64,000 nt of DNA from Candidatus Nomurabacteria bacterium (GTDB lineage Bacteria; Patescibacteriota; Minisyncoccia; Phycocordibacterales; UBA9973). The notes under the pieces are model-generated. The model saw only the letters and a program-made list of their open reading frames with translations, was not told the origin of the DNA and did not search any database. Where the stretch lies: positions 684-64,683 of the forward strand of contig JAHFNJ010000006.1 of NCBI GenBank assembly GCA_023267375.1. Reading direction: 5' to 3'. Made by a program: the position numbers and the translations under genes. This document shows, piece after piece, positions 9,118-61,972 of this stretch (position 1 is its first letter; every line of letters begins with the position of its first letter).

Positions 9118-9603
9118 CTATTCTATCTCGACGATAGTATATTCTATCGCGCCATTAGGACTTTGGAAAGAGGTCTTATCCCCCTTCTTGTGACCCAATA
9201 GTGCAGTACCAATAGGTGAACGGTTTGAGATCTTTCCTTGTGACATGTTTGCCTCTTCAGAACCGACGATTTGGTAACGTTTAGGCTCCTTCTCGCCTGC
9301 TTTTTTGACAATAACTGTTGAACCAACCTCTACCTTGGTACTGTGGTGTGTTTTAACAATGATCGATTCTTTAAGAATACGTTCAATTTTTGAAATACGC
9401 TCTTCAAGCTTTCCCTGCTCTTCACGGGCCTGATGGTATTCTGCGTTCTCTGAAAGATCGCCAAGTGATTTGGCAAACTCAAGACTGTCCAAAACCTCCT
9501 TACGACGGGTCGTTTGGAGCTCTTTTAATTCAATTTCCAATGCCTTACGCTTCTCTTCGGTTATATACTCTCCTTGGTGATCATCCATACCCTTTGAAAA
9601 CAC
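9118..9603 (-). CDS. greA: transcription elongation factor GreA
   Basis: 161 aa with an N-terminal coiled coil carrying the acidic tip (..LGDLSENAEYHQAREEQ..) and a C-terminal FKBP-like domain. Confidence 0.85.
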   Translation of the reverse strand: MFSKGMDDHQGEYITEEKRKALEIELKELQTTRRKEVLDSLEFAKSLGDLSENAEYHQAREEQGKLEERISKIERILKESIIVKTHHSTKVEVGSTVIVKKAGEKEPKRYQIVGSEEANMSQGKISNRSPIGTALLGHKKGDKTSFQSPNGAIEYTIVEIE

Positions 9604-53972: not shown

Positions 53973-54584
53973 TTAAATCACTTGTTCTAATAATTCAGGA
54001 AATTCTACGGTACCCATATGTTCTAAAATGAAGTGTCCTCGCCCTGGTAAAGTTACTAACTTTCCACCCAGAGCATCGTTATACATTTTAATACTTTCTG
54101 GACCACCTGGACCTTCATTATCTGATGTAAACATCACAATCTCCTGTACACGCGAAGGAATGGTTTCATCAATTGAGTAGTTATAAAATCTCGTCCTCAA
54201 ATCAATTGGTTCTTTATTGCCAGCAACTTTCCAAGGTGCAACTAAAATTAATTTCCTAATTTTTTTCTTAGTATCACCAAGCCATCTTACTAAAAAAGCA
54301 CATCCACAACTATGTCCTATTAGAATGGTATTTTCATCAACTTTATATTTTTCAAATTCTTTTTTAAACTTTTCGTAATCTGGCACCCAAGGTTCAGGCA
54401 TTAGCGGTGTCTGCGTTGGTACTCCCATGTCTAACAATTTTTCACGAATCCAAGGAATCCAGTGTTTATAATATGTTCTTTCGCTTATATCAATGAGTGA
54501 TTCCTTTGTACCTGGACATCCATGAACGATAATACAGTTAATTTTTTTATCCATATTTGGATTGTAACATGATTCGAATCTCAA
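53973..54584 (-). CDS. alpha/beta-fold serine hydrolase (YdeN/RBBP9-like esterase)
   Basis: 203 aa with nucleophile elbow GHSCG, plus downstream Asp/His consistent with the Ser_hydrolase family. Confidence 0.5.
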   Translation of the reverse strand: MRFESCYNPNMDKKINCIIVHGCPGTKESLIDISERTYYKHWIPWIREKLLDMGVPTQTPLMPEPWVPDYEKFKKEFEKYKVDENTILIGHSCGCAFLVRWLGDTKKKIRKLILVAPWKVAGNKEPIDLRTRFYNYSIDETIPSRVQEIVMFTSDNEGPGGPESIKMYNDALGGKLVTLPGRGHFILEHMGTVEFPELLEQVI

Positions 54585-54740
54585 ACTCCGACCTGTCTAG
54601 GTCAGGTCGTTCACTAAATTGGAGAATGGTACGCTTTTGTGGTTGATTCTAAGTGATTGTAATTATTTGACAATAATTAATTTTAATGTTAAATTATTAA
54701 AAATTTAACTGTATAACCAAAAATCTAAATAACCAATATT

Positions 54741-55466
54741 ATGCCAGCAAAGATTACTTTACTCGGAGCATTGCATGCAACCCCAGAAAAACTCATAGAT
54801 AGTAATCAGTATGGGATCTCAGATATGTTATTAGGTAACGAATCTGATACATTATTCGCGGAAAGATGGTTCAAAACATTTGATGACAATTTAACTTTGC
54901 TAATCTTAGAAAGTGCTTCATTCCATAAGAACATCATTACAATAGATAGTCCATTGTATGAAAGTGAGATCAAGCACATTAGCACATTGTTAGTTCAAAG
55001 TGATTTTGGTCCAGATATTCTGTGTGCGGATACACGTTTTAAAAATTTAAAGTCGGCAAAGAAAATCGTTAGTCTTAATTTTACGACTTTAGCGCACATG
55101 AATGGTGCATTTGGATTGGTAAGAATTCCTGAAACATTTGAGGATGCCCAGAAGTGTTACATCGACGGGAGATGGAAAAGGGATTATCGCCTGATGAGAG
55201 AAATCCCCAACAACATCAAAAGATCTGTTTTAGAGGAAGATGCTCTTAATACAGAAATGGAGAAGTACATGTTGGAACAAGCTGAGAAATATAAAAATGA
55301 TTATGACCAAATACTTATAATCACCGGTGCTTCTCATACTCTCGAAATGGCGACAACTTCTCAACTTCCCTATGAGGTGCTTGTTGAAACCAATAGCATG
55401 AATGAAATAGCTCAAAATTATGGAATGCTATTGGCAAGAAAAGCAAAAACAATTTTAAAGTGTTAA
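54741..55466 (+). CDS. hypothetical protein, possibly TraB/GumN-family
   Basis: ITLLGALHATPE near the N-terminus and LIITGASHTLEM near the C-terminus resemble the two TraB/GumN His motifs. Weak. Confidence 0.3.
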   Translation: MPAKITLLGALHATPEKLIDSNQYGISDMLLGNESDTLFAERWFKTFDDNLTLLILESASFHKNIITIDSPLYESEIKHISTLLVQSDFGPDILCADTRFKNLKSAKKIVSLNFTTLAHMNGAFGLVRIPETFEDAQKCYIDGRWKRDYRLMREIPNNIKRSVLEEDALNTEMEKYMLEQAEKYKNDYDQILIITGASHTLEMATTSQLPYEVLVETNSMNEIAQNYGMLLARKAKTILKC

Positions 55467-55487
55467 TTAAAGAAGGAGGAAAAAACA

Positions 55488-55523
55488 GCACGGAAGATAG
55501 AATTTCTATCTTCCGTGTTTTAT
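55488..55523 (+). terminator. intrinsic terminator
   Basis: GCACGGAAGATAGaatttCTATCTTCCGTGttttat lies directly after the 54741-55466 stop. Confidence 0.65.
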
Positions 55524-55609: not shown

Positions 55610-55683
55610 TGGGGAATCGTCTAATGGTAGGACAGCGGCCTTTGAAGCCGTTAATTGGGGTTCGAATCCCTGTTCCCCAGCCA
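55610..55683 (+). tRNA. tRNA-Gln (anticodon UUG), CCA encoded
   Basis: TGGGGAATCGTCTAATGGTAGGACAGCGGCCTTTGAAGCCGTTAATTGGGGTTCGAATCCCTGTTCCCCAGCCA. The acceptor stem is TGGGGAA/TTCCCCA, the anticodon loop is CTTTGAA (UUG) and the T-loop is GGTTCGAATCC. Confidence 0.8.
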
Positions 55684-55714
55684 ACTTGAGCTAGCTCAAA
55701 GATAGCTAGTTTCA

Positions 55715-55752
55715 AAACAAAAAACACCTTAATCAAAAAGGTGTTTTTTGTT
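55715..55752. terminator. intrinsic terminator after tRNA-Gln
   Basis: aaaaaACACCTTaatcaaaAAGGTGTtttttg. Confidence 0.6.
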
Positions 55753-55786
55753 TGAGTATTTATCGTAAATATAGTATAACTACACC

Positions 55787-56350
55787 ATGAACTTGGTTAA
55801 AGTGAATACTACTATTTTTGGCGAAGACTGCACAGTTGATCTAATGCAGTTTGATTCTTCTGATGGGAAAAAATGGAAAACTCTATTTGATCTATGGAAA
55901 GGTCTTAAAATGGGTATGCGTGATTACAAATCACGTGAGCCAAATTTTCCAGAAGGACTATCTGAAGTTGCTTTTTGTTTATGGTCTGGATCAACCAGAT
56001 TAATAAGTGCAAAAAAACTATCTAACACATCTTTTGATACATTTAATACTAAGACAAAAAGAGCTGAACAAATCAAAGCTTGTAGCGTTGAAAATGATCT
56101 TACTTCTTTTGGTCCAAAGTCTAGGTGGGATGATTTATATTTCTTGGACTTTTATGCTGATGGAAAAGTTGATGGAACTTTTAGTATTTATCTAATACCT
56201 AATAATTTTATTTACGATAATCAGGTTAATAAACTTCAGACACTCAAGCAACAACAAGAAGAAAAAAGGAGACCTAGGTTTTGTATCAAAAAAGATGTTA
56301 TTGAGAAATACAGTCTTAAGCCAGTCGCTACCAATGTAAAGGTTTGGTAA
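55787..56350 (+). CDS. hypothetical protein; candidate restriction endonuclease partner of the adjacent C5-MTase
   Basis: 187 aa, convergent and tail-to-tail with the MTase (stops 2 nt apart). It contains a possible PD-(D/E)XK-like stretch (WDDLYFLDFYADGKVDG) and has no RBS, so it may be leaderless. Confidence 0.3.
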   Translation: MNLVKVNTTIFGEDCTVDLMQFDSSDGKKWKTLFDLWKGLKMGMRDYKSREPNFPEGLSEVAFCLWSGSTRLISAKKLSNTSFDTFNTKTKRAEQIKACSVENDLTSFGPKSRWDDLYFLDFYADGKVDGTFSIYLIPNNFIYDNQVNKLQTLKQQQEEKRRPRFCIKKDVIEKYSLKPVATNVKVW

Positions 56351-56352
56351 TT

Positions 56353-57939
56353 TTACATCATCGCTTCCATCATTTTCTTTGCCACGGCTTCAATTACAGG
56401 AACACTCACTGAGTTACCAGCCTGTTTATACAGTGATGAATCTGCAATATTGGGCAGTACATAACTTTTAGGGAAACCTTGTATTCGAAAACACTCTAAT
56501 GGCGTAAGTTTTCTTATACCTTTTTTGTCTTTTATTATAGGTACATTGTGTCCACCCATTCCCATATTTGCAGTAAGTGTTGGACAAACCCCACTTTTAT
56601 TTTCACGGACATACTGTCTCCTCCATTGATATACTTTTCCTTCTTCTTTCACGTCTTTCTTTAGTTTCTCAAAAAGAGGTTTGCCGTTGTAGTAGTATTT
56701 TTCAGGAACATTTTTTTCTAATAAATCAGTAACTTTTTTTGTAAGTTTAACTGGTTCAGGAAAATTAAATTTATCCGAATAATCTTTATTTTTAAAACCC
56801 ACTATATAAATACGCTCACGATTTTGTGGAACATTACCATATTCCATAGTATTTAGTACTTTAGATTTTACATGGTAACCCAATTCTCTAAGAGTTTCTT
56901 CGATTACTTTAAAAGTATTGCCTCCGTCGTGGCTTTTCAGGTTTTTAACATTCTCAAGCATAAAACCCTCTGGATTTTTAGCTTTAATGATTTTTGCTAT
57001 ATCAAAAAATAGATTACCTCTATTTTTAGGATCGTCGAACCCTTTACGGTATCCTGCAATAGAAAACGCTTGGCAAGGGAATCCTCCTAATAAGAAATCA
57101 AATTCTGGCAAGTCATCAATCCCAATCTTTCTAATGTCCTCAACAATTAGTTTCGAGTTTCCAAAATTAAGATCGTAAGTAAGTTTACATGGAGCATCAA
57201 AATCATTTGCGAATACTGTTTTAAATCCAGCATTCTCAAATCCTGTTCTGATACCACCAACGCCTGCAAATAAATCTATGGTTTTAAAGCCATGCTTAGA
57301 CTTCTTTCTGGGTTTCGCTTCTTCTTCCAACTTAATATCTCGTATAACTTGCACAACGACACCTCTTATCTCTACATCTATTCTAAACAATGGTTTCATG
57401 TCTGGATTTCGCGGTTGCAATCTAATTTTCTTGTCTTCTTTATATAGTTTTTTAAGAGTTGCTTGATTATCATCAATAATTGCAACAACTGTTTGTCCGT
57501 TTTCTGCTACAGATTGTTTTTTAATAACAACAATGTCGCCATTAAAGATACCTTCATCTATCATACTGTCTCCAACAACACGCAGAGCATAGTGGTCTTT
57601 AGCAGTTTTGATAGCTGGATTTATTATAGATATGGTGTCTTGAGCATCTTCAATTGCTTCTATTGGTTGACCAGCGGCAATTTTACCAACAATAGGAATT
57701 TCAATGATTGATTTAATTTCTTTTTTTGGTGTCATACCACGATCGGTATCATCTGATTTTGAAAGGTAACCTTTCTCTCTTAGGGAAGCTATATGTTCGT
57801 GAACCGTTGAAACTGCCTTTAGATTTAAATTTTTACGAATCTCATCAATTGTAGGAGGAATGCCATTCTCAGCTGTATAAGTATTGATAAAATCGAATAT
57901 CTCTTTTTGTTTTTTTGTTAGTGTTTGCATATTACTCAT
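56353..57939 (-). CDS. LexA repressor (wHTH + S24 autopeptidase) fused to DNA (cytosine-5)-methyltransferase
   Basis: Residues 1-200 align motif-for-motif with E. coli LexA: LTKKQKEIFDFI, GIPPTIDEI, cleavage-site VGKIAAGQPIEA, catalytic Ser in RVVGDSMIDEGIFNGD and Lys in ATLKKL. Residues ~215-528 carry C5-MTase motifs I (DLFAGVGG), IV (GGFPCQAFS), VI (ENV) and X (QAGNSVSVPV). Confidence 0.8.
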   Translation of the reverse strand: MSNMQTLTKKQKEIFDFINTYTAENGIPPTIDEIRKNLNLKAVSTVHEHIASLREKGYLSKSDDTDRGMTPKKEIKSIIEIPIVGKIAAGQPIEAIEDAQDTISIINPAIKTAKDHYALRVVGDSMIDEGIFNGDIVVIKKQSVAENGQTVVAIIDDNQATLKKLYKEDKKIRLQPRNPDMKPLFRIDVEIRGVVVQVIRDIKLEEEAKPRKKSKHGFKTIDLFAGVGGIRTGFENAGFKTVFANDFDAPCKLTYDLNFGNSKLIVEDIRKIGIDDLPEFDFLLGGFPCQAFSIAGYRKGFDDPKNRGNLFFDIAKIIKAKNPEGFMLENVKNLKSHDGGNTFKVIEETLRELGYHVKSKVLNTMEYGNVPQNRERIYIVGFKNKDYSDKFNFPEPVKLTKKVTDLLEKNVPEKYYYNGKPLFEKLKKDVKEEGKVYQWRRQYVRENKSGVCPTLTANMGMGGHNVPIIKDKKGIRKLTPLECFRIQGFPKSYVLPNIADSSLYKQAGNSVSVPVIEAVAKKMMEAMM

Positions 57940-57947
57940 AATTTACA

Positions 57948-57975
57948 TTTTGCTACATTTACATTATATCCGAAA
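57948..57975 (-). promoter_or_regulatory. candidate operator: direct repeats ATGTAAAT-N8-ATGTAAAT (minus-strand sense) immediately upstream of the LexA-MTase start
   Basis: The plus strand reads atTTACATTTtgcTACATTTACATtat, 10-35 nt upstream of the start codon. Confidence 0.3.
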
Positions 57976-58010
57976 TAAAACCGAAAGTCTAAGCTTTAAT
58001 TAAAATACTG

Positions 58011-59357
58011 TTAATAACTCAAGCCAATAAGCTTATTTTTTAATGAAATATTACTTTTAAAACAAGTAAGCAATTCTCGCTTTTCTTCAACTGTACCGTC
58101 TTTCAGTATAAACTTGGCATAGTCTCTAATGTCTACGTCTTTTATTTGTATCTGCTGTTTAATATTTAGTACGGAATGATTAAATCTCTTAATCCGTTCA
58201 ACTTCACTTCTAATTTTTTCTTTCATGCCAATTTCACTAATGCTGATTTGATCTATAAGCTTTTCAAATTGTTGTATTAGCTCAATTTCATTTATGTATC
58301 CACATTTGCAAAATCTGTCTTTTGATTTTGCACAACCGTAGTACACATGTCGGTTTACACTACCGTCTTTAAGTTTCTTGAATTTTTCTTCTGCCGTTAT
58401 ACCTGATCCGCAAAGACCGCAATTCATCATCTTTATGAAAGCGAATTCTTTTGGTTCTTGAGTGCGAAGTGTCTGTGATTTTACCTGTGTTTGAACTTGA
58501 TCAAACAGTTCTTTGGAAATTATTGGTTCGTGTCTTCCTGTATAAAAGTTTCCACTTTTTCTAGGGTATTCAAAAACCCCATAATAAAATGGAGTTTCTA
58601 AAATCATGTATATATTACTCAAGGTCAATCCTTTGTTTCCATTACGCGTCTTTAGGTTTAATTCAAATTTAAGCCAATGATATATTTTTCTTCCACTCCA
58701 TCTTTCGTAAGCGACTTTTTCAAATATTTGTTTAACAATAGGTGCTCGTTCTGGATCTATAACTACCTGACATTTTTTATCGACATGCTTTTCGTTCAGG
58801 TATCCAAATATTGCAGGACCAGGTCGTAGTCCCATCTCACACCTTGTTCTTAATCCTCGTTTTACATTGATACTTTTATTGTCGTTTTCGAGCTTTGCCT
58901 GAGAACACAAGATCATTAGCAGGAATTTCTCGTTTGGAGAATTTTTGAAGTGTTGCCCATATGTTCTAATCTCAATAAGTTTGTTTTCATCCATTAAGTC
59001 GACAACTGATCCAAGATCTCCTGCGTTACGAGAAAGGCGATCGGGTGCCCAAGTAAGAATTCCTGTATATCTACCTCTGCGGATATCTTCAAGTAATTCT
59101 TTAAAGACTGGTCGCTGTCCTGATTCCTTTGCAGAATGTGATTCACGCCTAATCTCTACAACAGTTAGTCCGTCACGATCTGCAATCGTCAACATCTCTT
59201 TTACTTGTGACTCAATCGAGAGTGCTTGCTTTTCATCTGATTCGGTCGACTTCCTGGCATATAGGACGTAACGAACCTTTGCTTGTATGATCTCTGTCTT
59301 AACACCAAGGTTGCTTATGTATTGGGTTTCCATACATATATTGATGACGCAGATCAC
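58011..59357 (-). CDS. large serine recombinase (resolvase N-terminal domain + recombinase domain + zinc ribbon)
   Basis: N-terminal YARKSTESDEKQALSIESQ carries the catalytic Ser, the R..R motif is present, and the C-terminal Cys cluster is CGLCGS...YYGC. 448 aa. Confidence 0.8.
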   Translation of the reverse strand: MICVINICMETQYISNLGVKTEIIQAKVRYVLYARKSTESDEKQALSIESQVKEMLTIADRDGLTVVEIRRESHSAKESGQRPVFKELLEDIRRGRYTGILTWAPDRLSRNAGDLGSVVDLMDENKLIEIRTYGQHFKNSPNEKFLLMILCSQAKLENDNKSINVKRGLRTRCEMGLRPGPAIFGYLNEKHVDKKCQVVIDPERAPIVKQIFEKVAYERWSGRKIYHWLKFELNLKTRNGNKGLTLSNIYMILETPFYYGVFEYPRKSGNFYTGRHEPIISKELFDQVQTQVKSQTLRTQEPKEFAFIKMMNCGLCGSGITAEEKFKKLKDGSVNRHVYYGCAKSKDRFCKCGYINEIELIQQFEKLIDQISISEIGMKEKIRSEVERIKRFNHSVLNIKQQIQIKDVDIRDYAKFILKDGTVEEKRELLTCFKSNISLKNKLIGLSY

Positions 59358-59537
59358 TAGTTTTGCTAAGACTATGCAGACTAAGAAATACGTCGCATAC
59401 TCGCGATCAACGCCTTAGCAAAACCATATATCAGCGATACAATCAATCTAGAGTAATAGCAGTGAAAATGTTATTATTCTTTTACAACTGAATATCAGTC
59501 GACCTAACCCCTTTGGGAAACTAAAGGATATGGTCGC

Positions 59538-59690
59538 AAGTCCTATCAAGCATAAAGAACCCGTCATGGGGTGGCTTGATAGGCCGTATCGGGAAACTGG
59601 TACGAGAGGGTTCGCCCTCTACCCGTGGCGGGCTTTTTGTGTCTCAAGAAGCTCGATACGGAATTATTAAGTAATAAGTCCTATCAAGCG
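59538..59690 (+). ncRNA. structured intergenic element: three copies of a 12-mer (AGTCCTATCAAGC direct x2, inverted x1) flanking a GC-rich hairpin + T-run; candidate small RNA or operator/att region
   Basis: GTCCTATCAAGC occurs at 59539 and 59678, and GCTTGATAGG at 59573. The hairpin is AGAGGG-TTCG-CCCTCT, followed by CCCGTGGCGGGCTTTTT. No plus-strand CDS precedes the terminator-like structure. Confidence 0.3.
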
Positions 59691-59692
59691 TT

Positions 59693-60197
59693 TATGAATA
59701 CAACCAAAAAGTGCCCTGCGTGCCAGAAAGAGGTCGATGCGAAAGCAACCAAGTGTCCGTATTGTCAGTCAGACATGCGGAACTGGATTAGAAAACATCC
59801 AATAGGATCACTCATTCTAGTTCTGTTAGTAGTACCATTCTTTGTCAGTCAGATTATTGCAGAGCCGACACCTGAACAAACTCCCGCTCAACAAATTGCA
59901 GGAGTGAAGTACCAGAGCGCAAGAATCCTTGCAAAGTCATATATCGAGAAGGTGCCATTGAAGTCACCATCGACAGCAAAGTATAATCCTCCGACAACAA
60001 AGGTTGATCCAACAAATCCAAATCTCTTTGAAGTCTCATCGTACATCGACAGCCAGAACGGATTCGGAGCAATGATCAGAACATACTGGTCAATGAAGCT
60101 CGAATACATCGGAGGAGAAGACAATCAAGAGTCAGTCGAAACTGATGCAAACTGGAAAGTCGTAGAGTTCATCTTCGACGGAGAAAAGATTAAGTAG
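59693..60197 (+). CDS. zinc-ribbon membrane protein (hypothetical)
   Basis: MNTTKKCPACQKEVDAKATKCPYCQS is a CxxC...CxxC ribbon. It is followed by a TM helix and an extracytoplasmic domain. The start is placed at MNTTKK rather than the track's upstream Met. Confidence 0.45.
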
Positions 60198-60705
60198 TCT
60201 CAGGAGGTTTCTTCTTTCGTTTCTTTGGTTCTGGGATATCGTCCTTGATAACTCCCCAACGCTTGAAGAAGACCTCAGCATCCTTGCGAGCCTGCTCCAT
60301 ATCTTCTCTTTTGGAAGCAGACATCTCACCTAGTGCCTTGTCTTCAATTTCAAGTTTCTTTGAAATTTCAGCGAGGTAGCGGAATTGAGCAAAAGGATCT
60401 TCAGAATCAATTCTGTGGATGTACGGTCGTCTGAAATCATAGTGATTACGATCGAGCCAGTACATTGTGTACCTCACGTCTTTTGCTTTGATTCCTGCTA
60501 GCACGTTGCTTACTGCGATATCGTTCACGCGTCCTTTGCCGAGAGATAGTGCGTAGTTTGCTTGCGCCAAGAACGCAGGGTCTTCTTTCATCCAACGATA
60601 GAATGTGTTGCGAGAGATGCCGACCTTTTCACATGCGATCTGGAGCAGTGGGGTGTTCTCAAGCTCTGTCAGCAACTTATTTATGAGAGCTTTTGTCTTT
60701 TTCAT
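60190..60705 (-). CDS. phage terminase small subunit-like HTH DNA-binding protein
   Basis: The N-terminal LLQIACEKVGISRNTFYRWMKEDPAFLAQANYALS is the HTH typical of phage TerS/packaging proteins. The C-terminus is basic. Confidence 0.4.
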   Translation of the reverse strand: MKKTKALINKLLTELENTPLLQIACEKVGISRNTFYRWMKEDPAFLAQANYALSLGKGRVNDIAVSNVLAGIKAKDVRYTMYWLDRNHYDFRRPYIHRIDSEDPFAQFRYLAEISKKLEIEDKALGEMSASKREDMEQARKDAEVFFKRWGVIKDDIPEPKKRKKKPPETT

Positions 60706-61972
60706 ATACAGCTTTTTTACCAGTGAGCTTTTCCCAACGACGGATGATGAGGTCTACAAACACTGGCTCCAGTTCCATTCCGTACACTCTTCGACCAAGA
60801 GCTTCTCCTGCGATTAAAGTGCTACCTGACCCAAGAAAGCTATCAAGAATGATGTCGTTAATTTTCGTACATCGCTTGATTGCTTTCTCATGAAGACAAG
60901 GAGGCTTGGAAGTCGCATGCGTGTATTCTTTTGCAGAGAGCCTTTTCGCTGTCCATATCTCAAGGAAATCATCAACTTGTTGCATTAGTTCATTTCCAGT
61001 ACCGAACTCGTTGTTCAGTACTTCAGTAAGATCAGTCATTGATTTGGTTAGATATGGTTTGCCACGAATACCATAGACCGCAGGTTCGTATGCTTTGTTG
61101 CAGAAGACCTTAGGGACGCAGTTCTGACTGTTTTTTAGCCATAGGCACACACGCTTATTTTCAATACTAAGTGAGCGATACAGTTCTTGCACTACGCCGA
61201 TATAAATCTGATCACAGTAATAGAAGACGTGTGTATCCTCATGACACACAGCAAGTCCTGCTTCCATACTGTCTTTGAGAAACTTCTTGTATTCGTCGTA
61301 CGTTCTAGTATCGTTTACATTTCCTCCATAGTCCTGTGCGCCTCCAATTCCTGTGTTGTAGTCCACACCACCCTGTAGATTATATAAGGGGTCACTATAG
61401 ATGATTGATGCTCTCTCATCTCCAAACAATCTCTTTAGATTTTCTTTATCTGTCGAGTCGCCACACAAAATTTTGTGTGAGCCTAGGGTGATTAGGTCGC
61501 CGAGTTTTGTTTTTGGATTCTTGATCTTTTTCAGCTCCTTTTTTTCATCGAAGTTATCGTCGGTGGCTTCCTTGTCTTTGTCGAATATTTCAGAAAGTTC
61601 GATCGGATCGAACCCTGCGAACTCGAGGGTTTCGAAATCAAACTCCTTCAAAAGATCTATGTCCCATTCTCCAGATATTTTGTTTGAAGCGATTAAGTAC
61701 TCTTTTACTTCCTTTTCTGAGAGTTTTCGATTGGGGATGCGAACATCAATTAACTCTTCTCCGCGACCGAGCATTTTCAATGCTTTTATTCTTTGGTGGC
61801 CTGCCAGAATTTTTCCATCTAAATCCACGGCAGGTATTTCGACCAAATTATATTTCTTAATGCATTTCGTTAGGTCTGACATTTGTTTGTCAGGCATTTT
61901 TCTTGGGATGATCTCCTGGGGAATGAGATCATCCACTGTTTTTGGGACCGTAGTCCAGGCTAGTTTTTTCAT
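60677..61972 (-). CDS. ParB-like nuclease domain fused to beta-class DNA methyltransferase (N6A/N4C type)
   Basis: The N-terminal ParB/Srx fold motif is ..LAGHQRIKAL... The MTase motif IV SDPLYN precedes motif I DSFLGSGST, which is the beta-class order. Confidence 0.7.
   Translation of the reverse strand: MKKLAWTTVPKTVDDLIPQEIIPRKMPDKQMSDLTKCIKKYNLVEIPAVDLDGKILAGHQRIKALKMLGRGEELIDVRIPNRKLSEKEVKEYLIASNKISGEWDIDLLKEFDFETLEFAGFDPIELSEIFDKDKEATDDNFDEKKELKKIKNPKTKLGDLITLGSHKILCGDSTDKENLKRLFGDERASIIYSDPLYNLQGGVDYNTGIGGAQDYGGNVNDTRTYDEYKKFLKDSMEAGLAVCHEDTHVFYYCDQIYIGVVQELYRSLSIENKRVCLWLKNSQNCVPKVFCNKAYEPAVYGIRGKPYLTKSMTDLTEVLNNEFGTGNELMQQVDDFLEIWTAKRLSAKEYTHATSKPPCLHEKAIKRCTKINDIILDSFLGSGSTLIAGEALGRRVYGMELEPVFVDLIIRRWEKLTGKKAVYEKDKSSHK

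What the first reader, a model, noticed from the sequence alone, without database searches (positions are those of the whole stretch)
56353..57939. Complete LexA (HTH + S24 autopeptidase) fused in-frame to a C5-cytosine DNA methyltransferase
The sequence shows one 528-aa ORF. Its first ~200 residues carry every functional element of LexA: the winged-HTH, the Ala-Gly autocleavage site (KIAAGQP), and the Ser (GDSM) and Lys (LKKL) catalytic dyad. The remaining ~315 residues form a canonical Dcm-type MTase with motifs I, IV, VI and X in order. Some MTases of R-M systems carry short N-terminal HTH autoregulatory extensions (for example the SsoII type), but I do not know of one fused to a full self-cleaving LexA module. 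By inference, the MTase (and a linked nuclease, if there is one) would autorepress via the LexA domain, and RecA*-stimulated self-cleavage during DNA damage would detach the DNA-binding domain. That would couple methylation or restriction balance to the SOS state. The location, in an AT-rich island next to a serine recombinase, suggests a mobile regulatory R-M or epigenetic module.
Basis: partly seen in the sequence, partly recalled or inferred. Interest (0 to 1): 0.85.

Follow-up and report, generated by a model that had tools for sequence, protein, structure and literature searches.

The report
LexA repressor fused to restriction methylase
The protective DNA methylase of a small mobile restriction-modification system carries a complete, apparently self-cleaving DNA-damage sensor (LexA) at its front end. 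This design is widespread in the ultra-small Patescibacteria and probably lets the system adjust self-protection when the chromosome is damaged.

Summary
Window 56353-57930(-) encodes one 525-aa protein (the ORF reaches 57939, but the conserved start is its codon 4). It consists of a full-length LexA (NCBIfam lexA equivalog, 191 bits against a cut-off of 111), an 18-residue linker and an M.Bsp6I-like C5 DNA methyltransferase. It abuts a convergent Bsp6I-family restriction endonuclease tail-to-tail.

It is not an assembly artefact. At least 120 protein clusters and 80 species-representative genomes, all Patescibacteria, carry the intact fusion. The Ala-Gly cleavage site, the Ser/Lys dyad and all methyltransferase motifs are invariant.

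New here:
- Its promoter holds a period-11 direct repeat (TTCGG-N6-TTCGG) that fills the -35/-10 spacer.
- The repeat co-varies with the LexA recognition helix and also sits at native stand-alone lexA promoters.
- The same LexA module is fused to at least four unrelated methyltransferase classes.
- Host lineages also have a separate native LexA.

Best reading: an autorepressed methyltransferase of a mobile Type II restriction-modification module that is probably released from repression by RecA-stimulated self-cleavage. Binding and cleavage are inferred, not shown.

I found no description in the searchable literature. Interest is high.

The parts
56353..57930 (-). Coding sequence of the LexA-C5 methyltransferase fusion. 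It is 525 aa, with the stop codon at 56353-56355. The ORF extends to 57939, but the conserved start is 57930.
57736..57930 (-). LexA winged-helix DNA-binding domain (residues 1-65). The predicted recognition helix KAVSTVHEHIASLRE lies at 57775-57819.
   Evidence: Pfam PF01726; alignment to LexA structures; helix/operator covariation
57352..57696 (-). S24 autopeptidase domain (residues 79-193). Cleavage site A86-G87 is at 57670-57675, the nucleophile S122 at 57565-57567 and the general base K160 at 57451-57453.
   Evidence: Pfam PF00717. Invariance: A86 77/77, G87 76/77, S122 77/77, K160 77/77. The same positions are invariant in 51 other-cargo fusions. Coordinates.
57289..57342 (-). Linker RDIKLEEEAKPRKKSKHG (residues 197-214). 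It is variable in sequence and length across the family and contains no internal Met.
56368..57288 (-). C5 cytosine DNA methyltransferase domain (residues 215-521). Motif I DLFAGVGG is at 57253-57276, the catalytic PCQ at 57070-57078 and ENV at 56947-56955. It is 56% identical over its whole length to the plain 315-aa MTase that partners a Bsp6I-family REase on a Bacillus plasmid.
57963..57991 (-). Promoter of the fusion gene: -35 TAGACT (57986-57991), a 17-nt spacer, and -10 TATAAT (57963-57968). It is the best sigma-70-like site in the 4.1-kb module.
   Evidence: conserved across loci
57970..57985 (-). Predicted LexA operator TTCGGTTTTATTTCGG, a direct repeat of period 11 that occupies the promoter spacer. 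It is the only exact copy in the 64-kb window.
55787..56350 (+). Bsp6I-family Type II restriction endonuclease (187 aa), convergent with the MTase gene. The two stop codons are 2 bp apart and no terminator lies between them.
   Evidence: Pfam PF09504, 2e-11; PADLOC REase_II, 3e-26; plasmid homologues named Bsp6I family
58011..59357 (-). Large serine recombinase (Resolvase + Recombinase + Zn_ribbon_recom), upstream on the same strand. It is part of the shared 3.9-kb island.
55659..59543 (.). The extent of the block shared with L001, a different Paceibacteria MAG, at 83% nucleotide identity. This is the mobile island holding the REase, the LexA-MTase and the recombinase.
55610..55683 (+). tRNA-Gln(TTG) flanking the island. 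It is followed by a bidirectional terminator-like hairpin at 55715-55753.
59501..59620 (+). LOOT RNA (Rfam RF03000, 81.6 bits) at the other edge of the island.

Best explanation
This is the modification enzyme of a mobile Type II restriction-modification module. The nuclease is Bsp6I-like and the presumed target is GCNGC. The methyltransferase carries its own complete LexA repressor as an N-terminal domain.

Proposed mechanism:
1. The fusion dimerises through the S24 domain.
2. It binds the TTCGG-N6-TTCGG direct repeat in the spacer of its own promoter. Methyltransferase abundance thereby represses its own synthesis.
3. When RecA filaments form on single-stranded DNA, for example after chromosome damage or self-restriction at unmethylated sites, the S24 domain cuts at Ala86-Gly87.
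4. The DNA-binding domain is lost and the promoter is derepressed. The remaining S24-methyltransferase fragment keeps an intact catalytic domain.
5. The net effect is more methylation. Because the two genes collide tail-to-tail with no terminator, restriction enzyme expression probably also falls. This would be a Type II analogue of restriction alleviation.

Shown here by computation: the architecture, the conservation of both catalytic sets, the operator's position, its covariation with the recognition helix and its exclusivity, the pairing with nucleases, the module's mobility, and the existence of a separate native LexA in the host lineages.

Inferred, not shown: DNA binding, autorepression, RecA dependence, and the direction of the response.
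For: Architecture and domain identity.

The fusion is intact in the best 120 clusters and in 80 species-representative loci.

In 77 diverged members (62-90% identity) the following are invariant or nearly so: Ala-Gly, Ser and Lys of LexA, and MTase motifs I, IV, VI, VIII and X.

Promoter: the best promoter-like site in the module is TAGACT-17-TATAAT, with the repeat filling the spacer.

Helix/half-site covariation across two independent cargo families:
- HEH with TTCGG, 52 of 55.
- HKH with TTCGC, 5 of 7.
- YQH with TTCTG/TTCGG, 4 of 4.
- H[HY][HY] with TTCTA, 7 of 10.

Operator distribution:
- The exact repeat is found at 60 fusion promoters and once elsewhere in 807 kb.
- A position-weight-matrix scan of 1.32 Mb finds strong boxes essentially only at LexA or LexA-fusion promoters.
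- There is one box in the 64-kb window.
- Native stand-alone lexA genes with the same recognition helix carry the same box abutting their -10.

Generality: the same LexA module is fused to N6/N4, D12, gamma-class N6 and C5 MTases. All 51 representatives scanned have both LexA domains and invariant A-G, S and K. A second fusion family has the same promoter layout.

Partners:
- 69 of 72 loci have an abutting convergent partner ORF.
- The partners fall into 8 unrelated clusters, 4 of them recognisable as Type II REases or PD-(D/E)XK nucleases.
- The stop-to-stop gap is 0-5 bp in most of the 24 Bsp6I-type loci measured, and no terminator-like site lies between the two genes in the window.

The MTase half is 56% identical to the plain MTase of a Bsp6I-family system.

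The host lineages possess a distinct native LexA (31% identity, different recognition helix), so the fused module is an accessory, self-contained regulator.
Against: No experiment or direct measurement supports binding or cleavage.

No recA or other SOS gene lies in the window, so RecA availability in this genome was not checked here.

No LexA box or other shared control element was found upstream of the REase gene. About 10 of the 24 Bsp6I-type loci use a separate C-protein-like gene for the REase, which the window lacks.

From my own knowledge, both E. coli LexA cleavage fragments are rapidly degraded. The S24-MTase fragment could therefore be unstable, which would reverse the predicted outcome.

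GCNGC is not depleted in the window: 141 sites against 130 +/- 11 expected. There is thus no footprint of long residence or activity.

The AlphaFold model was too poor (mean pLDDT 64) to say anything about domain arrangement.
Confidence: 0.6

Rival explanations
1. The fusion is the cell's principal SOS repressor. The LexA half governs a genome-wide DNA-damage regulon, and the methyltransferase is a passenger or serves a housekeeping epigenetic role.
For: NCBI's lexA equivalog model scores it above its cut-off, and NCBI names many members 'transcriptional repressor LexA'. The box is also the autoregulatory box of native stand-alone LexAs in Dojkabacteria. The fused protein could therefore act on any such box in a genome.
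Against: Genomic context is not syntenic and the gene travels in a 3.9-kb island. Almost every copy is paired with a nuclease. Strong boxes in 1.32 Mb of flanking DNA and in the 64-kb window occur only at LexA or LexA-fusion promoters. Paceibacteria and Nomurabacteria, which host the fusions, have an abundant, highly conserved separate LexA. One locus (L047) holds both genes 2.6 kb apart.
Confidence: 0.12
2. It is a damage-triggered suicide switch. RecA-stimulated cleavage inactivates or destabilises the methyltransferase, so the partner nuclease destroys the chromosome of a damaged or phage-infected cell, in an abortive-infection-like outcome.
For: It rests on the same conserved cleavage machinery and the obligatory nuclease partner. 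From my own knowledge, LexA cleavage products are degraded in E. coli. The predicted N-terminal fragment here ends in ...I-A-A, which resembles the E. coli fragment's V-A-A end.
Against: Cleavage removes only residues 1-86 and leaves the whole methyltransferase domain and its linker intact. Loss of the repressor should raise transcription of the gene. Nothing in the sequence marks the C-terminal fragment for degradation.
Confidence: 0.13
3. The LexA module works only as an autoregulatory DNA-binding and dimerisation domain, as in SsoII-type methyltransferases. Self-cleavage is vestigial or not RecA-linked.
For: Operator position and covariation support autoregulation whether or not cleavage happens.
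Against: A vestigial protease would not keep Ala-Gly, Ser and Lys invariant in 77 members down to 62% identity, and again in 51 representatives fused to other cargo classes. A short HTH would be enough for autoregulation alone.
Confidence: 0.1
4. It is an assembly or sequencing artefact, or a pseudogene that joins two separate genes.
For: None found.
Against: The same uninterrupted reading frame occurs in hundreds of independent assemblies from different samples and lineages, with conserved length and junction.
Confidence: 0.01

Closest known systems
Bsp6I-family Type II restriction-modification systems (for example Bacillus altitudinis plasmid pTM1, NZ_AP025263.1)
   Same: The REase is homologous (33-37% identity; Pfam RE_Bsp6I). 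The C5 MTase is 56% identical over its full 315 residues, including the target-recognition region. The same target (GCNGC, from my own knowledge of Bsp6I) is therefore likely.
   Different: The plasmid MTase is a plain 315-aa enzyme with no N-terminal domain, and its genes are in tandem. Here the MTase carries a 214-residue LexA-plus-linker extension and the genes are convergent.
C5 methyltransferases with an N-terminal autoregulatory HTH region (SsoII, EcoRII, MspI type; from my own knowledge)
   Same: A DNA-binding domain fused to the N-terminus of a C5 MTase binds an operator in its own promoter, so the enzyme level controls its own transcription.
   Different: Those extensions are short HTH regions without a protease and are not related to LexA. 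Here the extension is a full LexA with a conserved self-cleavage site and catalytic dyad, which adds a signal-responsive off-switch. SsoII-type control acts on divergent promoters, whereas this system is convergent.
LexA SOS repressors (E. coli 1JHH/3JSO, T. maritima 3K2Z)
   Same: Residues 1-197 align over their full length. The protein scores above the NCBIfam equivalog cut-off. It has the same cleavage site and the same Ser/Lys dyad, and an autoregulatory box in its own promoter.
   Different: It is fused to an enzyme and carried on a mobile R-M module. Its operator is a direct repeat of period 11 rather than a palindrome. From my own knowledge this geometry resembles the alphaproteobacterial GTTC-N7-GTTC box. 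No wider regulon was detected.
S24-family repressors of mobile elements (lambda CI, SXT SetR; from my own knowledge)
   Same: A mobile element brings its own RecA-sensitive, self-cleaving repressor, so its genes respond to host DNA damage independently of host LexA.
   Different: Those are stand-alone repressors that control lysis-lysogeny or transfer. Here the repressor is covalently joined to the protein it regulates, and the element is an R-M system.
Restriction alleviation in Type I systems (ClpXP-dependent loss of HsdR after DNA damage; from my own knowledge)
   Same: It has the same proposed physiological logic: protecting a damaged chromosome, with its newly synthesised and unmethylated DNA, from the cell's own restriction enzyme.
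   Different: The mechanism is entirely different, being proteolysis of the restriction subunit. No equivalent is established for Type II systems.
C-protein-controlled Type II systems
   Same: A dedicated small regulator times R against M expression. About 10 of the 24 Bsp6I-type loci in this family also carry a C-protein-like HTH gene directly upstream of the REase.
   Different: The window's copy lacks a C gene. The LexA domain acts on the MTase promoter and adds damage sensing.

Membership tests
LexA (TIGR00498 / PF01726 + PF00717) | N-terminal LexA-type winged-helix DNA-binding domain | tested here: met
   PF01726 at 2e-17, covering the full model. Residues 1-197 align with solved LexA structures.
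LexA (TIGR00498 / PF01726 + PF00717) | S24 domain with an Ala-Gly cleavage site and a Ser/Lys catalytic dyad | tested here: met
   A86-G87, S122 and K160 align to E. coli A84-G85, S119 and K156. They are invariant in 77 family members and in 51 other-cargo fusions.
LexA (TIGR00498 / PF01726 + PF00717) | Score above the curated equivalog cut-off | tested here: met
   191.1 bits against a cut-off of 110.95, covering model positions 1-202 of 203.
LexA (TIGR00498 / PF01726 + PF00717) | Autoregulation through a LexA box in its own promoter | tested here: met
   By sequence only. The direct repeat fills the -35/-10 spacer, co-varies with the recognition helix, and is shared with native lexA promoters.
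LexA (TIGR00498 / PF01726 + PF00717) | RecA-stimulated self-cleavage | not testable with these tools
   Needs biochemistry.
LexA (TIGR00498 / PF01726 + PF00717) | Control of a multi-gene SOS regulon | tested here: not met
   There are no further boxes in the 64-kb window and essentially none outside LexA or LexA-fusion promoters in 1.32 Mb of related loci. Whole genomes could not be scanned.
C5 cytosine DNA methyltransferase (PF00145 / TIGR00675) | Conserved motifs I (FxGxG), IV (PCQ), VI (ENV), VIII (QxRxR) and X (GN) in order | tested here: met
   All are present and invariant in 76-77 of 77 members. PF00145 scores 2e-92 and TIGR00675 scores 345 bits.
C5 cytosine DNA methyltransferase (PF00145 / TIGR00675) | Methylation of a defined target (expected GCNGC) | not testable with these tools
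   Inferred from 56% identity to the partner MTase of a Bsp6I-family REase, and from NgoFVII-type partners in sister loci.
Type II restriction-modification system | A separate REase gene adjacent to the MTase gene | tested here: met
   PF09504 RE_Bsp6I at 2e-11 and PADLOC REase_II at 3e-26, with a 2-bp stop-to-stop gap. 69 of 72 sister loci have an abutting partner.
SsoII-type autoregulating C5 methyltransferases | An N-terminal DNA-binding extension that binds its own promoter | tested here: met
   Architecture and operator position. Function is inferred.
SsoII-type autoregulating C5 methyltransferases | Homology of the N-terminal region to the SsoII/EcoRII-type short HTH | tested here: not met
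   The extension is a full LexA (wHTH + S24), not a short HTH. It works like this family but is not a member.
Integrative island with a large serine recombinase | A recombinase with Resolvase + Recombinase + zinc-ribbon domains inside the mobile block | tested here: met
   block shared with L001.
Integrative island with a large serine recombinase | Identifiable attachment sites or an empty site | tested here: inconclusive
   The block's ends fall inside tRNA-Gln and LOOT RNA in both genomes. No att repeats or empty site were identified.

The most novel reading that the evidence does not exclude
In Patescibacteria, a self-cleaving LexA module with its own orthogonal direct-repeat operator has been fused repeatedly to the methyltransferases of restriction-modification systems from at least four unrelated enzyme classes. 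These fusions would form a general, portable circuit by which Type II systems sense RecA activation, including damage they cause themselves, and shift the methylation/restriction balance. That would be the first Type II restriction-alleviation mechanism. The same promoters also carry a near-invariant DnaA-box-like site, so methyltransferase synthesis may integrate replication and damage signals.
Probability: 0.35. Interest if true: 0.9.

Novelty: new variant of a known kind. Interest (0 to 1): 0.78.

Why it matters
Three reasons:

1. How Type II restriction-modification systems avoid killing their host when repair or recombination creates unmethylated DNA is an old open question. Damage-linked restriction alleviation is known only for Type I systems. 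A methyltransferase that carries its own RecA-sensitive repressor gives a concrete, directly testable mechanism. Its recurrence on four methyltransferase classes argues that it is selected for rather than accidental.

2. It gives a readable repressor-operator code (recognition-helix residue against half-site base) for a LexA lineage that binds direct repeats.

3. It sheds light on gene regulation and defence in Patescibacteria, which are mostly uncultured and rely heavily on restriction-modification.

Practically, automated pipelines name these proteins either 'LexA' or 'DNA methyltransferase'. That misleads SOS-regulon and defence-system censuses alike.

Tried and rejected
1. Artefact or frameshift: rejected by cross-sample conservation.

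2. Orphan methyltransferase: my first tblastn found the Bsp6I-like REase in only 24 of 80 loci. A proper ORF analysis then showed an abutting convergent partner in 69 of 72 loci, from 8 unrelated families. The orphan idea was dropped.

3. Methylation-sensitive promoter: there is no conserved GCNGC in the promoter region. A GCGC in the conserved ATTGTAGCGCAAA element of many loci is absent from the window's copy. Not pursued.

4. Target-site avoidance: GCNGC is not depleted in the window, so this is uninformative.

5. Phage carriage: no phage record (INPHARED) or IMG/VR viral contig has the fusion. They carry only plain MTase homologues, up to 73% identical.

6. Internal translation start giving a free MTase: the linker has no Met.

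7. Second LexA box in the window: the weak hit at 9542 lies inside a greA-like coding sequence and is chance.

8. Structure prediction: mean pLDDT was 64 from a shallow alignment, so the model was not used and no fold search was run.

9. Literature: ten full-text searches found no description of the fusion. The key paper on the Patescibacteria SOS network (Sanchez-Osuna et al. 2017, doi 10.1111/1462-2920.13826) is not held. I cannot exclude that it mentions these fusions or reports this box. A later paper from the same group lists that work among cases of LexA recognising direct repeats (PMC7739468).

10. Whole-genome census of LexA paralogues and boxes in a complete host genome: not possible, because only about 13-kb loci could be fetched.
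Full report
**Observation.** The window holds a single ORF at 56353..57939 on the minus strand (528 aa).
- Pfam finds LexA_DNA_bind (4-68), Peptidase_S24 (82-196) and C-5 DNA_methylase (218-524) in that order.
- NCBIfam's lexA equivalog model scores 191 bits (cut-off 111) over essentially its whole length. The dcm model scores 345 bits.
- Against solved structures, residues 1-197 align end to end with E. coli and T. maritima LexA, and residues 209-518 align with M.HhaI.
- Homologues in 77 loci begin at the ATG at 57930, which is codon 4 of the ORF. The protein is therefore most likely 525 aa, and all residue numbers below use that start.
- In that numbering the cleavage site is A86-G87, the dyad is S122/K160, the linker is 197-214, and the methyltransferase is 215-521 (coordinates checked).

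**Not an artefact, and not rare.**
- The best 120 clusters from a 5.8-billion-protein search are 77-100% identical. All carry the three domains in proteins of 523-551 aa. Where sources name them, they are Paceibacterota, Parcubacteria, Moranbacteria or Yanofskybacteria.
I did not check that all of them are fusions.
- All 80 retained loci show one uninterrupted match across the junction wherever the contig allows. They span Paceibacteria, Nomura-, Uhr-, Moran-, Magasanik- and Saccharibacteria, including complete chromosomes.
- In an alignment of 77 full-length members (62-90% identical to the window protein), A86 (77/77), G87 (76/77), S122 and K160 (77/77) are kept. So are methyltransferase motifs I, IV (PCQ), VI (ENV), VIII and X.
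- Both enzymatic activities are thus under purifying selection. The LexA half is otherwise more variable (45-90% identity) than the methyltransferase half (69-92%).

**A restriction-modification module.**
- The convergent neighbour at 55787-56350(+) is a Bsp6I-family Type II restriction endonuclease: Pfam 2e-11 and PADLOC REase_II 3e-26, with plasmid homologues so named by NCBI.
- The two stop codons are 2 bp apart, and no terminator-like site lies between the genes.
- On a Bacillus plasmid the Bsp6I-family nuclease partners a plain 315-aa methyltransferase. The window's methyltransferase half is 56% identical to it over the full length, including the variable target-recognition region. The same specificity (GCNGC, from my own knowledge of Bsp6I) is therefore likely.
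- Across the family, 69 of 72 loci with enough downstream sequence have an abutting convergent ORF of at least 140 aa.
- These partners fall into eight mutually unrelated clusters: Bsp6I-like (23), an NgoFVII-type (9; PADLOC REase_II 2e-105), another REase_II type (9), a PD-(D/E)XK type (4), and four with no profile match.
- One conserved methyltransferase paired with non-homologous nucleases is the usual pattern for isospecific restriction systems. It shows the fusion is almost never an orphan.
- Several loci add a divergent Vsr mismatch endonuclease gene. About 10 of the 24 Bsp6I-type loci have a C-protein-like HTH gene upstream of the nuclease. The window has neither.

**Mobility.**
- Genomic contexts are not syntenic.
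- The window and a different Paceibacteria MAG (L001) share only window 55659-59543 (83% nucleotide identity). That block holds the nuclease, the fusion and a large serine recombinase. In both genomes it is bounded by a tRNA-Gln gene and a LOOT RNA.
- GC content is 0.34 in the island against 0.415 elsewhere.
- No phage record or viral contig carries the fusion. Viruses carry only plain methyltransferase homologues.

**The operator.**
- Upstream regions of the fusion genes are strikingly conserved. The layout is a -35 element, a direct repeat TTCGG-N6-TTCGG (period 11) that fills the spacer, then TATAAT.
- In the window this is TAGACT (57991-57986), TTCGGTTTTATTTCGG (57985-57970) and TATAAT (57968-57963). 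It is the best promoter-like site in the 4.1-kb module.
- Four lines of evidence argue that the repeat is the binding site of the fused LexA domain:
  1. It sits where a repressor blocks RNA polymerase.
  2. It is almost exclusive to these promoters. There are 60 exact copies at fusion promoters against one elsewhere in 807 kb. A matrix scan of 1.32 Mb finds strong sites essentially only at LexA or LexA-fusion promoters. The 64-kb window has a single site.
  3. The half-site co-varies with the predicted recognition helix. H-E-H goes with TTCGG (52/55), H-K-H with TTCGC (5/7), Y-Q-H with TTCTG/TTCGG (4/4), and H-[HY]-[HY] with TTCTA (7/10). The same pairings recur independently in a second fusion family with a different enzyme cargo.
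  4. Stand-alone LexA genes of Dojkabacteria, the closest free relatives of the fused module, share its recognition helix. They carry TTTCGG-N5-TT(T/A)CGG abutting the -10 of their own promoters.
- A paper from the Erill group lists Patescibacteria among lineages whose LexA recognises a direct repeat (PMC7739468).

**A general design.**
- I searched 1.84 billion cluster representatives with the LexA half alone. The nearest relatives are mostly longer proteins with the LexA module at residues 1-198. Free LexAs of about 200 aa appear only at 50% identity or below.
- All 51 long representatives scanned have both LexA domains. Their cargo hits are N6_N4_Mtase (29), Eco57I, N6_Mtase, MmeI or TaqI-type gamma-class enzymes (up to 7), D12/Dam-class (5) and C5 (3). 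A few have no recognisable cargo.
- The cleavage-site A-G and the S and K of the dyad are invariant across all 51.
- Named members are again Patescibacteria (Nealsonbacteria).
- One such family, LexA plus a gamma-class N6 enzyme, has at least 285 metagenomic loci. It shows the same promoter layout and an abutting partner ORF. One locus holds two LexA-methyltransferase genes side by side.

**Relation to the host's SOS system.**
- Paceibacteria and Nomurabacteria, which host the fusions, possess an abundant and highly conserved stand-alone LexA of 188-192 aa. More than 5,000 proteins match, the top 120 at 81-99% identity, and NCBI names them LexA.
- That native LexA is only 31% identical to the fused module and has a different recognition helix. 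In L047 both genes lie 2.6 kb apart.
- The fused module therefore looks like a self-contained, orthogonal repressor-operator pair that travels with the restriction system, not the cell's master regulator. The window itself contains no native LexA, recA or uvr gene, so this could not be checked for this genome.

**Mechanism.**
- Best-supported reading: the fusion represses its own promoter, so enzyme level sets its own synthesis, as in SsoII-type methyltransferases. It retains LexA's RecA-triggered self-cleavage, which would remove residues 1-86 and derepress the gene. A complete methyltransferase domain would remain.
- The convergent nuclease gene has no intervening terminator, so stronger methyltransferase transcription may also lower nuclease expression.
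- The outcome would be extra protection when repair synthesis or self-restriction threatens the chromosome.
- Binding, cleavage, RecA dependence and the fate of the cleaved enzyme are all inferences.
- The main alternative outcome is that cleavage destabilises the enzyme and unleashes the nuclease. Sequence alone cannot exclude this.

**Novelty.** The proteins have been in public databases for years under the names 'LexA' or 'DNA methyltransferase'. Ten full-text searches found no description of the architecture or its logic. Autoregulating methyltransferases and self-cleaving repressors on mobile elements are both known kinds, and this combines them. I therefore rate it a new variant of a known kind. 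The caveat is that the 2017 Patescibacteria SOS paper could not be read.

Noticed in passing
L004-L080 and L081-L160 upstream regions (for example L005:5890-6006). Absent from the window's copy, where the recombinase gene ends about 70 bp upstream (58011).: A near-invariant TGTGGATAA(C), the exact DnaA-box consensus TTATCCACA on the other strand, sits 10-13 nt upstream of the operator repeat in the C5 family. In the N6 family it abuts the repeat or the -35 in either orientation, often with a second copy just before the ATG. Allowing one mismatch, it is present in 66 of 77 and 42 of 49 upstream regions, against 0.047 expected per region. It stays constant while the LexA helix and operator vary, so it looks like the site of a conserved host factor. 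One-mismatch versions also occur at native lexA promoters (L161, L162).
   Followed up: partly
window 59501-59620 (+); also L001:4303-4431, L002:1464-1582, L050:2859-2984, L080:2248-2365: A LOOT RNA (Rfam RF03000, 72-91 bits) lies at the edge of the island in the window. It recurs next to four of the other loci I scanned that pair the fusion with a serine recombinase, usually with a tRNA gene at the other side. The block shared with L001 ends inside it. It may mark the integration site or belong to the element.
   Followed up: partly
window 59625-61972: Just beyond the island lie three genes: a zinc-ribbon protein (59625-60197 +), an HTH protein with weak terminase-small-subunit-like hits (60190-60705 -), and a 431-aa protein with an N6_N4 DNA methylase domain (60677-61972 -). 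This may be a remnant of a second mobile element or prophage.
   Followed up: no
L110:1690-3051 (+) and L110:4001-5854 (+): Two different LexA/S24-methyltransferase fusions lie side by side, each with its own abutting convergent partner ORF. One has a D12/Dam-class cargo and the other a gamma-class N6 cargo.
   Followed up: partly
L037:5509-5910 (-), L041:5506-5949 (-), L058:5517-5918 (-): A Vsr T:G mismatch endonuclease gene is transcribed divergently from the fusion gene. It shares the roughly 95-bp control region that holds the DnaA-box-like site and the LexA operator. The window's copy has no vsr.
   Followed up: partly
L047:2811-3386 (-) and relatives P0396-P0515: The native stand-alone LexA of Paceibacteria and Nomurabacteria has an N-terminal domain that does not hit the LexA_DNA_bind profile (only Peptidase_S24 is recorded), and its recognition helix is unlike the fused module's. 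Its operator is unknown. In L047 the gene start is flanked by an inverted repeat (TCCCGTTTAGAAG ... CTTCTAACGGGA).
   Followed up: no
L166:5001-5930 (IMG/VR viral contig): A viral contig encodes a plain C5 methyltransferase that is 73% identical to the methyltransferase half and has no LexA module. It may be a phage counter-defence against this restriction specificity.
   Followed up: no
window 57931-57962 (-): Between the -10 and the start codon, the window's copy has a 9-nt direct repeat (AATGTAAAT ... AATGTAAAT). Sister loci carry a conserved ATTGTAGCGCAAA there instead. Its significance is unknown and it may be chance.
   Followed up: no
window 54000-55500: The low-GC stretch (0.34) begins before the tRNA-Gln. 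It includes a 241-aa ORF (54741-55466 +) with no Pfam match, so the AT-rich region is larger than the 3.9-kb shared island.
   Followed up: no
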